IMG/VR virus record: IMGVR_UViG_2579778650_000006
Origin: a virus
Taxonomy: Duplodnaviria; Heunggongvirae; Uroviricota; Caudoviricetes
Strand: one strand, 5' to 3'
DNA: 5,022 nucleotides
Below are positions 2,608-3,366 of the stretch, in pieces. Under the pieces are notes generated by a model. The model did no database searches and was not told the origin of the DNA. It saw nothing but the letters and a program-made list of their open reading frames with translations. Each line of letters starts with the position of its first letter. Positions within the stretch are counted from its first letter, which is position 1. Position numbers and translations under genes: made by a program.

Positions 2608-3366
2608 TCATTGATTCACCTCCTGCCTGTCGTCCGGCATTCGCTCACTACAGCTTATCCAACCATCCGGAGTTACCGGAGAGTTGCCCGATAGTGCATT
2701 CTGCTCCAGTGATGCTTTTACAAACCACGCTGCCTGAACTATAACGCCATGAATCCAGCGCAAATCAGCATCGCGATCTTTCTTTTTCATCTTTTCGCCA
2801 CTTAAGGCCTTGCTTATGTGGCTGCGTACCAGGTCTTCATGTAATTCCTTCGCCTCCTCAATGGTGAAACCACCAGGCAGAAGAGCCGGAGTTACCGGAG
2901 AGCTGGTTGACGCTTCCGGGATTTCCCGAAAATTATTGGTTGACGAATTCTTGCTTTCCCGAAAGTTTCCGGACTGAAGCATGGCGGTGCGGCAGGCGTT
3001 CCATATTTCGGCAGCAATATCGCGCTCGCTATCGGTTAATTTGTACGTGGAAACATAGCCAGAGAGCATTTCTACGTTTTCCGGAGTTGCTTCTTCCGGC
3101 ACTACCGGCGCTGGCGGGGCGGCAAATAGATATCCGCCAAAGTCAGGAAGCTCTCCAATGGCCTGTACGAACTTTTGTTTGCCTACGTCAACTCCTAATG
3201 GGTAATGAGCTATAATCTTTGCCACCGGCTCTGCTTCCAGCGATACCAGTGCAATTCGTGCCAGTTCTTCCGCTTCTTCTGCTGGCAGTACAACGTTGCT
3301 ACCCGGTCCGTATGTTTCGCGCCACTGCTTGATTGTCAGCAGTCGCCCTTTGGTAATAGTGATCAT
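2608..3366 (-). CDS. Hypothetical phage protein, 252 aa, containing an internal SPVTP duplication.
   Basis: ATG at 3364-3366 overlaps the stop of the upstream gene as ATGA. SD AAGGA lies ~8 nt upstream. Stop TGA at 2608-2610. I recognise no family. Confidence 0.8.
   Translation of the reverse strand: MITITKGRLLTIKQWRETYGPGSNVVLPAEEAEELARIALVSLEAEPVAKIIAHYPLGVDVGKQKFVQAIGELPDFGGYLFAAPPAPVVPEEATPENVEMLSGYVSTYKLTDSERDIAAEIWNACRTAMLQSGNFRESKNSSTNNFREIPEASTSSPVTPALLPGGFTIEEAKELHEDLVRSHISKALSGEKMKKKDRDADLRWIHGVIVQAAWFVKASLEQNALSGNSPVTPDGWISCSERMPDDRQEVNQ
2667..2683. repeat. Copy 1 of an exact 17-bp direct repeat CCGGAGTTACCGGAGAG.
   Basis: Identical 17-mer at 2667-2683 and 2886-2902, read directly from the sequence. 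Confidence 0.9.
2886..2902. repeat. Copy 2 of the exact 17-bp direct repeat CCGGAGTTACCGGAGAG.
   Basis: Identical to 2667-2683. The offset is 219 bp, a multiple of 3. Both copies lie inside the 252-aa CDS and encode SPVTP. Confidence 0.9.

What the first reader, a model, noticed from the sequence alone, without database searches (positions are those of the whole stretch)
2667..2902. Exact 17-bp direct repeats flanking a 219-bp in-frame segment inside the 252-aa gene
CCGGAGTTACCGGAGAG occurs twice, 219 bp apart, both copies encoding SPVTP. An exact 17-mer recurring by chance within 5 kb is very unlikely. It suggests an internal duplication or a module boundary, and would allow in-frame deletion or duplication of a 73-residue segment by slippage or homologous recombination.
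Basis: seen in the sequence. Interest (0 to 1): 0.4.

Follow-up and report, generated by a model that had tools for sequence, protein, structure and literature searches.

The report
Shared linker flanking an optional phage domain
The two identical 17-base stretches are two copies of a short linker that many E. coli prophage genes place between swappable protein modules; here they bracket one optional 68-residue helical module, and natural gene versions with and without that module exist.

Summary
CCGGAGTTACCGGAGAG occurs exactly twice (2667-2683 and 2886-2902), 219 bp apart and in frame. Both copies encode SPVTP in the 252-aa gene on the minus strand (2608-3366).

It is not an internal duplication. 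The 17-mer is the core of a DNA island encoding GN-SPVTP-DGW. This island joins unrelated N-terminal modules to DUF551 or other C-terminal modules in more than 120 enterobacterial phage contigs. Its synonymous codons are almost fixed: 106 of 119 hits to a pattern degenerate at third positions carry the identical 24-mer.

The 68 residues between the copies form a separate conserved domain, probably a helical hairpin. It has 84 representatives at 50% clustering and sits at different positions in different proteins. AlphaFold2 gives pLDDT 86-96 inside the domain and about 50 at both SPVTP sites.

A 219-bp length polymorphism exists in a sister allele. 27 complete E. coli genomes carry the one-linker form. 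One genome carries the same 261 bp at 100% identity, split by the cassette.

The window gene has also lost its DUF551 core.

Verdict: a real module boundary and recombination joint. It is a clear new example of a known kind (lambdoid mosaicism, boundary sequences). The protein's function is unknown. Interest is moderate to low.

The parts
2608..3366 (-). 252-aa mosaic early-left (int-xis side) prophage gene. It is annotated 'Ea22' in PV340545.1 and 'phage protein' in the AR_0017 record; identical proteins are named 'DUF551 domain-containing protein' by NCBI.
   Evidence: ORF list. Pfam matches only positions 1-16 of 68 of DUF551, at aa 235-250, and gives no Ead_Ea22 hit. PHROG phrog_60, unknown function. 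100% identical to PhiR5_1 CDS 2098-2856.
2886..2902 (-). Linker copy on the 5' side in gene sense. It encodes SPVTP at aa 156-160 and joins the '...NNFREIPEASTS' region to the cassette.
   Evidence: In 14 related loci the BLAST alignment to the window ends at 2886-2888.
2683..2886 (-). Optional cassette, aa 161-228: a conserved helical-hairpin domain beginning LPGGF and running to about AAWFVKASLE, with the tail QNALSGN.
   Evidence: 84 representatives at 50% clustering, one copy each, at N-terminal, internal or C-terminal positions in proteins of 36-585 aa. AlphaFold2 pLDDT is 86-96 for aa 160-219 (72 for the 220-229 block), with helices at aa 169-183, 186-189 and 195-225. Homology in L005 spans exactly 2669-2895.
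2667..2683 (-). Linker copy on the 3' side in gene sense. It encodes SPVTP at aa 229-233 and joins the cassette to the DUF551 N-terminal motif.
2633..2688 (-). 56-nt conserved DNA island encoding GNSPVTPDGWISCSERMP. It is shared at 95-100% identity with many genes that are otherwise unrelated.
   Evidence: BLAST HSPs 2688-2633 in dozens of loci. Conservation profile over 33 non-redundant contexts. Near-fixed codons, including the rare codons ATA and CGA.
2611..2632 (-). Joint where the DUF551 core (about 45-65 aa in relatives) is missing (MPDD|RQEVNQ), followed by the conserved tail QEVNQ. The tail contains the Shine-Dalgarno sequence GGAGGTG of the next ORF.
   Evidence: L073, L112 and P0005 are 100% identical down to 2630 and then continue into a full DUF551. 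L093, L100 and L101 are 100% identical from 2626 onward, after a full DUF551.
2904..2967 (-). Two imperfect 33-bp units (77% identical) encoding NFRESKNSSTN / NFREIPEASTS, inserted between '...AMLQSGN' and SPVTP.
   Evidence: the repeat finder family D1. A relative with a single unit is L219, '...AGNFREISETSTRSPVTPDGW'.
2968..3366 (-). N-terminal modules, aa 1-133 (MITITKGRLLTIKQWRETYGPGSNVVLPAEEAEELARIAL ... CRTAMLQSGN). They are themselves mosaic.
   Evidence: HSP ends cluster at 3366, 3267, 3224-3231, 3121-3123, 3003 and 2975-2992. Several PHROG families hit sub-segments.
2528..2611 (-). Unannotated 27-aa hydrophobic ORF (MSWPDAIVTLGVVFAAAFVVFSICRWG). Its ATG overlaps the gene's TGA stop (ATGA).
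   Evidence: Alignment and translation. No CDS is annotated there in PV340545.1. 100% identical in L093, L100 and L101.

Best explanation
The two 17-mers are two copies of one conserved inter-module linker, consensus (A/S)GN-SPVTP-(D)GW, with DNA core TCTCCGGTAACTCCGGATGGTTGG. Accessory early genes of Escherichia-type lambdoid prophages use this linker between independently folding modules. In this gene the copies bracket an optional 68-residue helical-hairpin domain.

Because the linker DNA is identical wherever it occurs, it offers 17-56 bp of perfect homology in frame. Recombination between linker copies can happen within one gene, between genes of one phage, or between co-resident prophages. 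It adds, removes or swaps whole modules without breaking the reading frame.

Shown here: the linker lies at domain edges. It occurs in many unrelated contexts with almost fixed codons. Mosaic joints fall on it. Natural alleles differ by exactly the 219-bp unit.

Inferred: the enzymology. Candidates are phage Red (exo/bet/gam are encoded by this phage) or host RecA acting on the 30-56-bp island, or RecA-independent replication slippage or single-strand annealing for the 17-20-bp intragenic pair. Also inferred: repeated crossing-over within the island is what keeps its synonymous sites homogeneous.

The biochemical function of the protein and of the cassette is unknown. The gene lies in the early-left region between xis and the Ea22-like genes, so a host-interaction or developmental accessory role is the default guess.
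For: (1) The repeat is real and non-random.

In 116 complete ORFs of 89-483 aa the 17-mer sits between at least 13 N-terminal clusters and at least 8 C-terminal clusters, in 22 combinations.

(3) A scan with TCNCCNGTNACNCCNGAYGGNTGG, which is degenerate at third positions, found 106 of 119 hits with the identical 24-mer. The modal codon frequency is 93-100% at every linker codon, and the rare codons ATA and CGA are retained downstream. Across 33 non-redundant contexts, conservation falls to background within about 10 nt upstream and about 50 nt downstream.

(4) Fourteen loci have alignments to the window that end at 2886-2888. In eleven of them the same single linker aligns to both window copies.

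(5) The one-linker allele L066 matches the cassette-bearing allele L128 at 98.9% upstream, and the window-type loci L001 and L081 at 99.2-99.6% downstream. The subject coordinates overlap by 20 nt. In complete genomes, 27 carry the one-linker form as a single 261-bp match at 99.6-100% identity. H106 carries the same 261 bp at 100% identity, split by 219 bp.

(6) The cassette recurs with other partners: different N-terminal modules (L009, L095, L005, P0133), and C-terminal modules that are several DUF551 variants, a Cys-rich module (P0035) or further modules (P0008).

(7) AlphaFold2 with a diverse alignment gives pLDDT 86-96 for aa 160-219 and about 50-53 for the flanks. SPVTP lies at segment residues 17-21 and 90-94, at the two domain edges.

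(8) PhiR5_1 encodes exo, bet, gam, NinB and RusA.

(9) Literature. Homologous exchange at short conserved boundary sequences is one of two standing models for phage mosaicism (PMC3233612). Red recombines diverged sequences, with a minimal homology of about 30 bp (PMC2327257, PMC3945230). Short direct repeats delete without RecA (PMC7063769). ea22-region genes are mosaic and DUF551 behaves as a portable domain (PMC10834534).
Against: No recombination event was observed directly, and insertion versus deletion cannot be polarised. The upstream copy shares only 17-20 bp, below the roughly 30 bp quoted as minimal for Red or RecA, so that joint may form by slippage or microhomology instead. The exact deletion derivative of the window's own allele was not seen among the top-ranked matches. 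The clean near-isogenic pair belongs to a sister allele that is about 84% identical upstream. Some joints in the family lie elsewhere (P0001, P0022, P0023, P0120, P0202), so illegitimate or microhomology recombination also operates. IMG/VR and E. coli genome collections are redundant, so the counts are not independent events. Codon fixity could reflect recent common descent of the island rather than ongoing homogenisation.
Confidence: 0.85

Rival explanations
1. Internal tandem duplication: the 219-bp unit arose by duplication of neighbouring sequence inside the gene, and the 17-mers are what remains of two once-identical units.
For: The spacing is an exact multiple of three and the copies are in the same frame. 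Rare singleton alleles do carry tandem duplications in this region (P0001, P0022, P0023).
Against: Similarity stops after 20 nt. Tandem Repeats Finder reports nothing here. The cassette is a distinct domain found singly in 84 protein clusters. The same 17-mer occurs once in over 100 other genes that lack the cassette.
Confidence: 0.03
2. The 17-24-mer is itself a functional DNA or RNA site, for example a recognition sequence for a dedicated recombinase or nuclease, or a translational pause or RNA signal. Its codon fixity would then reflect selection on the nucleotides rather than history.
For: Synonymous sites are nearly invariant across unrelated contexts, including non-preferred codons. The motif contains two CTCCGG units 9 nt apart (read from the sequence).
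Against: In more distant relatives the nucleotides change while the peptide pattern SPxxP(D/E)GW persists: Yersinia NSPEIPEGW, and Escherichia sp. NSPANPDCW and SLPVTPDGW. No Rfam family matches. No partner enzyme is linked to it. The rest of PhiR5_1 carries no further copy. Codon fixity extends over the whole 50-nt island and decays gradually, as expected for a shared DNA lineage.
Confidence: 0.08
3. The cassette is a small mobile insertion and the 17-mers are its target-site duplication.
For: A discrete segment flanked by exact direct repeats, present in some alleles and absent in others with otherwise identical flanks.
Against: The segment is an in-frame, conserved protein domain down to about 45% amino-acid identity, and in distant relatives it lacks the SPVTP flanks. 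There are no terminal inverted repeats and no transposase. The supposed duplication is a pre-existing family-wide linker found in single copy in over 100 genes. The cassette's C-terminal 'LSGN' resembles the ends of other upstream modules, so each module carries its own linker half.
Confidence: 0.03
4. Chance recurrence or assembly artefact.
For: None.
Against: No match in any of 200 shuffles. The identical arrangement is present in an isolated phage genome and in many complete chromosomes.
Confidence: 0.01

Closest known systems
Conserved boundary (linker) sequences in the modular theory of lambdoid phage evolution. This is the model that homologous recombination at short conserved sequences between modules creates mosaics. 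It is summarised in PMC3233612. From my own knowledge, not checked here, it goes back to Susskind & Botstein 1978 and to Clark et al. 2001 on HK620.
   Same: A short sequence conserved at the DNA level between segments that are otherwise unrelated. Mosaic joints coincide with it. The phages carry Red-type recombination genes.
   Different: Here the sequence lies inside coding regions at protein-domain boundaries rather than between genes, so it shuffles domains in frame. Two copies occur in one gene. The same 24-mer is reused in dozens of module combinations.
Mosaic ea22 / exo-xis-region genes with DUF551 as a portable domain (PMC10834534)
   Same: The same genomic neighbourhood and the same idea of block-wise gene architecture, with DUF551 attached to varied N-terminal parts.
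   Different: That paper describes protein-level blocks in a few Ea22 variants. It does not describe the SPVTP linker, its DNA-level fixity, the LPGGF...AAWFV cassette or the 219-bp polymorphism. The term searches for 'linker' and 'modular' returned 0 occurrences. The window protein has no Ead_Ea22 domain.
Red/Rad52-type relaxed homologous recombination between phages and defective prophages (PMC2327257, PMC3945230)
   Same: This is the likely engine. Short identical blocks within diverged DNA act as preferred crossover points, and the phage encodes exo, bet and gam.
   Different: Those studies used homologies of hundreds of bp at 67-98% identity. Here the homology is an isolated island of 17-56 bp with no flanking regions of intermediate similarity.
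RecA-independent deletion between short direct repeats (replication slippage or single-strand annealing; Bzymek & Lovett 2001 and Bi & Liu 1994, as cited in PMC7063769)
   Same: Two close direct repeats, 17-20 bp long and 219 bp apart, are a classic substrate. The product is a precise loss of one repeat plus the spacer, which is exactly what the one-linker allele looks like.
   Different: Not demonstrated for this locus. The same product can also arise from unequal exchange between two different genes.
Exon or domain shuffling, and Pro-rich interdomain linkers of modular proteins
   Same: Independently folding modules are joined by a short flexible Pro-containing linker, and their combinations vary.
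   Different: There are no introns. The linker itself, conserved as DNA, appears to be the exchange point.

Membership tests
DUF551 (PF04448) domain proteins | A complete DUF551 domain of about 68 profile positions: WIxxxE(R/K)xP motif, variable core, and (T)HWMPLPxxP end. | tested here: not met
   Only profile positions 1-16 of 68 match (aa 235-250, 24 bits against a cutoff of 22). Relatives P0005, L073 and L112 continue into a full domain, whereas the window reads MPDD|RQEVNQ*. The gene is a derivative of a DUF551 gene that lacks the domain core.
Ead/Ea22-like proteins (PF13935), the name given to this CDS in PV340545.1 | A match to the Ead_Ea22 profile (N-terminal segment plus coiled coil). 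| tested here: not met
   There is no PF13935 hit for the 252-aa protein at E up to 0.1. The two ORFs at 3880-4365 and 4362-4976 in the same window do match, at 4e-31 and 7e-12.
Recombinogenic boundary/linker sequence (modular theory of lambdoid phages) | A short sequence conserved at the nucleotide level between otherwise unrelated flanking modules. | tested here: met
   106 of 119 hits to the degenerate pattern are the identical 24-mer. Flanks are at background identity in 33 non-redundant contexts.
Recombinogenic boundary/linker sequence (modular theory of lambdoid phages) | Mosaic joints between related genomes coincide with the sequence. | tested here: met
   HSP ends fall at 2886-2888, 2686-2694 and 2630-2636 in most loci. 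Eleven one-linker genes align to both window copies. The pair L066/L128 and the pair H106/H107-H133 show the same.
Recombinogenic boundary/linker sequence (modular theory of lambdoid phages) | Recombination actually initiates or resolves in the sequence at elevated frequency. | not testable with these tools
   This needs a genetic cross or deep long-read sequencing.
Tandem-repeat contingency (phase-variable) locus | Head-to-tail array of a repeated unit whose copy number varies. | tested here: not met
   Tandem Repeats Finder reports no array here. Only the 17-20-nt ends are repeated. The 84 representative proteins each have one cassette. The only two-cassette protein is a singleton from an 8.4-kb draft contig (P0001).
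Transposable or miniature mobile insertion with target-site duplication | Terminal inverted repeats or an element-encoded transposase, with a duplication created at insertion. | tested here: not met
   No inverted repeats bound the segment. The segment encodes a conserved protein domain. The 'duplication' pre-exists in single copy in over 100 genes.
Independent folded protein domain (for the cassette) | Recurs as a unit in different architectures and is predicted to fold on its own. | tested here: met
   Searches show the positions and architectures. One search gives pLDDT 86-96 with disordered flanks. There is no significant structural neighbour in the PDB or BFVD and no Pfam family.

The most novel reading that the evidence does not exclude
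The GN-SPVTP-DGW island is not merely inherited DNA. It is a self-maintaining in-frame shuffling joint, a coding-sequence recombination hotspot. Its nucleotide identity is kept by repeated crossover or gene conversion, and possibly by second-order selection. This would let Escherichia lambdoid phages assemble multi-domain early proteins combinatorially, a prokaryotic analogue of exon shuffling. It would also give the disputed boundary-sequence model of phage mosaicism a concrete, testable example at domain resolution.
Probability: 0.2. Interest if true: 0.65.

Novelty: new member of a known kind. Interest (0 to 1): 0.33.

Why it matters
How phage mosaics form is a long-standing question. One model is homologous exchange at short conserved boundary sequences. 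The other is random illegitimate joining followed by selection (PMC3233612, PMC2327257).

This locus is a compact natural test case for that question:
- a 24-56-bp island with nearly fixed codons, reused in dozens of module combinations;
- two copies within one gene;
- matched natural alleles that differ by exactly the unit between the copies.

The island can be recoded synonymously and assayed in red, recA and wild-type backgrounds.

There are also practical points for annotation. The gene is variously called Ea22, DUF551 protein, 'dTDP-6-deoxy-L-hexose 3-O-methyltransferase' or pseudogene. It contains an undescribed conserved domain (LPGGF...AAWFV). Short-read assemblies of multi-prophage E. 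coli genomes may mis-join at such islands.

Tried and rejected
- Rfam scan of the whole window found no family.
- Tandem Repeats Finder found nothing at the locus.
- AlphaFold2 on the full 252-aa protein, with 39 close homologues, gave mean pLDDT 33.9. It is unusable except as weak secondary-structure support. It was replaced by a segment model built on a diverse alignment.
- Foldseek of the cassette model against the PDB and BFVD gave no match with E at or below 0.001, only generic helical hairpins.
- PDB sequence search with the protein gave no hit.
- A synthetic deletion-junction query made from the window's own flanks returned, in the top 25 rows, only two-piece matches spanning 511 bp, meaning the cassette is present. 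An exact deletion derivative of this particular allele was therefore not found, and lower-ranked rows could not be inspected.
- A literature search for the linker peptide (SPVTPDGW, GNSPVTP and similar) gave no relevant paper.
- Chi site as a local hotspot: there is a true Chi at 2244-2251 and a one-mismatch GCTGGTTG next to the upstream copy (2902-2909). Nothing ties these to the joints, so this was not pursued.
- Single-linkage clustering of N-terminal parts collapsed 85 of 116 genes into one cluster, because sub-modules are shared. The figure of 13 N-terminal clusters is therefore a lower bound, not a count of module types.
- The DUF551 scan of one genome per species showed the linker only in Escherichia, Shigella and Yersinia-type genes. 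Many hits came from MAGs of unrelated phyla, some probably from binning contamination, and were not interpreted.
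Full report
**1. Observation**

The 17-mer CCGGAGTTACCGGAGAG occurs exactly at 2667-2683 and 2886-2902 (+ strand). There are no further matches with up to three mismatches, and none of 200 dinucleotide-preserving shuffles gave a match. The repeat finder extends the pair to 20 nt with one mismatch and shows nothing else repeated between or around the copies.

Both copies lie in the minus-strand ORF 2608-3366 (252 aa). Read in gene sense they are C TCT CCG GTA ACT CCG G. This gives SPVTP at aa 156-160 and 229-233 in the same frame, 73 codons apart.

The window region queried (2560-3400, 2500-3400) is 100% identical to Escherichia phage PhiR5_1 (PV340545.1) and to a prophage of E. 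coli AR_0017. The two-copy arrangement is found at 99.4% identity or more in at least 25 complete E. coli chromosomes. It is therefore not an assembly artefact.

**2. Genomic setting**

The window is the early-left end of a lambdoid prophage. In order it holds:
- integrase (550-1836) and a DUF1233 excisionase (1870-2124);
- a DUF4222 protein;
- the 252-aa gene;
- a 182-aa ORF;
- two Ead/Ea22-like ORFs.

The phage also encodes exo, bet, gam, NinB and RusA.

For the 252-aa protein, Pfam reports only the first 16 of 68 positions of DUF551, at aa 235-250. There is no Ead_Ea22 domain, even though the GenBank record calls the CDS 'Ea22'.

**3. What the 17-mer is**

Translating around every occurrence shows that it nearly always occurs once per gene, as (G/S/T)(N/S)-SPVTP-(D/A/G/E).

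Upstream partners are many unrelated sequences. Examples are ...CRAAMLQAGN, ...VSQTYKLNELSGN, ...AEPNFDVNGN, ...AVLRRLAGN and ...MRKAGN.

Downstream partners fall into three kinds:
- DUF551 domains with very different cores (DGWISCSERMP...);
- other C-terminal modules (DGWVMVPKRLTAENGAK..., DGHIQFSVSLP..., DDVRRMDWLVSK...);
- the cassette ALLPGGFTIEEAKELHEDL....

In 116 complete ORFs (89-483 aa), conservative single-linkage clustering gives at least 13 N-terminal classes, at least 8 C-terminal classes and 22 combinations.

BLAST of the window gene against these loci shows isolated islands of identity. Window 2688-2633 (56 nt, GNSPVTPDGWISCSERMP) matches at 95-100% in genes with no other similarity. 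When the downstream module is not DUF551, the match is 2688-2659 (30 nt).

**4. DNA-level conservation**

To remove the bias of an exact search, I scanned with TCNCCNGTNACNCCNGAYGGNTGG, which is free at every third position.

- Of 119 hits with usable flanks, 106 carry the identical 24-mer. The other 13 have one or two synonymous changes.
- Codon by codon, the modal codon accounts for 93-100% at each linker position. Non-preferred or rare codons (TCT, GTA, ACT, then ATA and CGA) are retained.
- Fixity decays only about 45 nt downstream, where CGA is at 81% and the final CCG at 60%.
- Across 33 non-redundant flank contexts, identity is at background about 10 nt upstream of the linker and beyond about 50 nt downstream.

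The island is therefore one DNA lineage placed in many gene contexts, not a convergent peptide.

In one genome per species, DUF551 domains are widespread, but the linker appears only in Escherichia, Shigella and Yersinia-type genes. The variants there keep the peptide pattern SPxxP(D/E)GW (NSPEIPEGW, NSPANPDCW, SLPVTPDGW). This argues that the primary constraint is on the peptide and that the nucleotide identity within Escherichia phages is historical or recombinational.

**5. What lies between the copies**

Residues 161-228 (window 2683-2886) are a discrete conserved domain. A full HMMER pass over 1.84 billion representative proteins finds 84 clusters (75 with E at or below 1e-10). Each has a single copy. 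The match usually covers query positions 1-3 to 61-68, at N-terminal, internal or C-terminal positions in proteins of 36-585 aa.

The alignment shows the signature LPGGF(S/T)x(E/D)EAxELHxxLVxSHISKA(L/I)SGE(K/R)MKxxDRxADLxWIxxxxVxAAWFVxAxxE. The domain limits fall just inside the two linkers.

AlphaFold2 on aa 140-252 with this diverse alignment gives:
- pLDDT 86-96 for aa 160-219, falling to 72 over aa 220-229, with helices at aa 169-183, 186-189 and 195-225 that form a helical hairpin;
- pLDDT about 50-53 for both flanks.

SPVTP sits at segment residues 17-21 and 90-94, exactly at the two edges of the folded part.

The earlier full-length model was unreliable (mean pLDDT 33.9), though its DSSP assignment also places both SPVTP motifs in coil. 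No significant structural neighbour, Pfam family or PDB sequence relative was found. The function of the cassette remains unknown.

**6. Length polymorphism at the repeat**

- Eleven related genes have a single linker that aligns to both window copies. Their upstream arm ends at 2886 and their downstream arm starts at 2686.
- The clearest case is L066 (also L096, L127, L008, L237), which reads '...NNFRKIPEASTS|SPVTPDGWISCSERMPDDRQEVNQ*'.
- Its upstream arm is 98.2-98.9% identical to cassette-bearing alleles (L002, L128 = P0029).
- Its downstream arm is 99.2-99.6% identical to the window-type loci L001 and L081. The two alignments overlap by the 20-nt repeat.
- In complete E. coli genomes, 27 carry this one-linker form as a single 261-bp match at 99.6-100% identity (H107-H133).
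- O111:H21 strain 15A (H106) has the same 261 bp at 100% identity, interrupted by exactly 219 bp.

So both states of the predicted in-frame indel exist in nature on near-identical flanks. This pair belongs to a sister allele that is about 84% identical to the window upstream of the repeat. The exact deletion derivative of the window's own allele was not seen among the top matches.

The cassette also appears with other partners:
- different N-terminal modules (L009, L095, P0148: ...MRKAGN|SPVTPARLPGG...; L005: GNPHVTPARLPGG...);
- different C-terminal modules, namely several DUF551 variants, a Cys-rich module in P0035, and extra modules in P0008.

Both linkers have therefore served repeatedly as joints.

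A two-cassette protein exists (P0001, 395 aa). It is a singleton from an 8.4-kb draft contig. Its 300-bp unit is not bounded by the 17-mer, and the 17-mers lie at 1490 and 1790 of L132. P0022 and P0023 are other singleton duplications with different junctions.

**7. A second rearrangement in the same gene**

Relatives P0005, L073 and L112 are 100% identical to the window down to 2630 and then encode a full DUF551 (...MPDDGQHVIIL...WMPLPEPPQEVRQ). L093, L100 and L101 are 100% identical to the window from 2626 onward, after a full DUF551.

The window gene has thus lost the variable DUF551 core. The loss lies between two conserved islands: the N-terminal motif, and the tail ...PQEVNQ*, which carries the Shine-Dalgarno sequence and the overlapping ATG of the next ORF. 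The gene now ends MPDD|RQEVNQ. PGAP flags the one-linker version as a pseudogene. The truncated end recurs in many contigs and in an isolated, viable phage.

**8. Mechanism**

Shown:
- the repeats are two copies of a family-wide interdomain linker;
- mosaic joints and a natural 219-bp polymorphism coincide with them;
- the exchange is in frame.

Inferred:
- Exchange occurs by homology-dependent recombination within the island. Red or RecA need roughly 30 bp (PMC2327257, PMC3945230). The 30-56-bp island at the downstream copy meets this.
- The 17-20-bp identity at the upstream copy does not. The intragenic deletion is therefore more likely to arise by RecA-independent slippage or annealing between close direct repeats (PMC7063769, citing Bzymek & Lovett 2001 and Bi & Liu 1994).
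- Joints elsewhere in the family (P0120, and P0202 at the microhomology ...GERM / ...SERMP) show that illegitimate recombination also contributes.
- Whether codon fixity is due to continuing homogenisation or to recent descent is open.

**9. Comparison with what is known**

Mosaicism of ea22-region genes and the portability of DUF551 have been described at the protein level (PMC10834534). The idea of recombinogenic boundary sequences is old and debated (PMC3233612).

I found no paper describing this linker peptide, its DNA fixity or the cassette.

I file the finding as a new, unusually clear member of a known kind. It is not a complete DUF551 protein, not an Ea22 protein, not a tandem-repeat contingency locus and not a mobile insertion (see the membership tests).

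**10. Verdict**

Interest is moderate to low (0.33). The result is ordinary in kind for lambdoid prophages, but it offers a compact and testable example for the mosaicism debate. The most novel reading still open is a self-maintaining in-frame shuffling hotspot. I give it a probability of about 0.2.

Noticed in passing
window 2626-2633 (gene end 2608-2640): The 252-aa gene lacks the DUF551 core. It reads MPDD|RQEVNQ*, whereas otherwise identical relatives carry 45-65 more residues between the conserved N-terminal motif and the tail. The one-linker relative of this truncated form is flagged as a pseudogene by PGAP (L254), yet an isolated phage carries the truncated gene.
   Followed up: yes
window 2528-2611 (-): Unannotated 27-aa hydrophobic ORF MSWPDAIVTLGVVFAAAFVVFSICRWG. 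Its ATG overlaps the upstream stop (ATGA), and its Shine-Dalgarno GGAGGTG lies inside the QEV codons of the upstream gene. It is 100% conserved in L093, L100 and L101, with a diverged version in L073. The conserved '...PQEVNQ*' tail of many DUF551-type genes may be conserved partly for this translational coupling.
   Followed up: partly
window 2904-2967: Two imperfect 33-bp units (77% identical) encode NFRESKNSSTN / NFREIPEASTS just upstream of the first SPVTP. A relative has a single unit (L219: ...AGNFREISETSTRSPVTPDGW), which points to copy-number variation of an 11-residue linker repeat.
   Followed up: partly
window 2244-2251 (+); 13 one-mismatch sites across the window, including 2902-2909: A perfect Chi site (GCTGGTGG) lies about 360 bp from the gene end. 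Chi-like sites with at most one mismatch are over-represented (13 observed, 3.95 expected, and no shuffle reached 13). One of them (GCTGGTTG) abuts the upstream linker copy.
   Followed up: no
P0001 / L132:1053-2240; P0022; P0023: Singleton alleles carry tandem duplications in this gene. P0001 has two cassettes in a 300-bp unit whose junction is not at the 17-mer. P0022 and P0023 have other extents. These could be real rearrangements or short-read misassemblies at repeated islands.
   Followed up: partly
P0202, P0120 (relatives found): These are chimeric joints away from the linker. P0202 fuses the cassette at ...ALSGERM to a DUF551 at ...(SER)MPAQDD, a microhomology joint. P0120 deletes from the cassette end (FVKASLE) to the tail (ALPEPSQEVNQ).
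   Followed up: no
P0162 (585 aa): A long relative strings many modules together with a different recurring linker, AQPV(S/I)(E/P), which occurs about seven times. One of the modules is the LPGGF-type cassette. Repeated-linker, beads-on-a-string architecture therefore seems general in these phage proteins.
   Followed up: no
DUF551 domains in L008-L127: DUF551 itself has conserved ends (DGWISCSERMP... and ...THWMPLPEPPQEV) and a hypervariable core. At least 22 core types with little 4-mer overlap occur among 66 distinct sequences. This looks like cassette exchange of cores between two conserved islands.
   Followed up: partly
PV340545.1 CDS 2098-2856 (= window 2608-3366); names: Annotation is inconsistent. 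The same protein family is called Ea22, DUF551 domain-containing protein, phage protein, hypothetical protein or 'dTDP-6-deoxy-L-hexose 3-O-methyltransferase'. No Ead_Ea22 profile match was found, and nothing found here supports the methyltransferase name.
   Followed up: partly
L133, L150 (Segatella copri MAG); L144 (Actinomycetes MAG): Short contigs binned into non-enterobacterial MAGs carry enterobacterial-type DUF551 genes, up to 91% identical, one of them with an SPAIPDGW linker. This is probably binning contamination.
   Followed up: no
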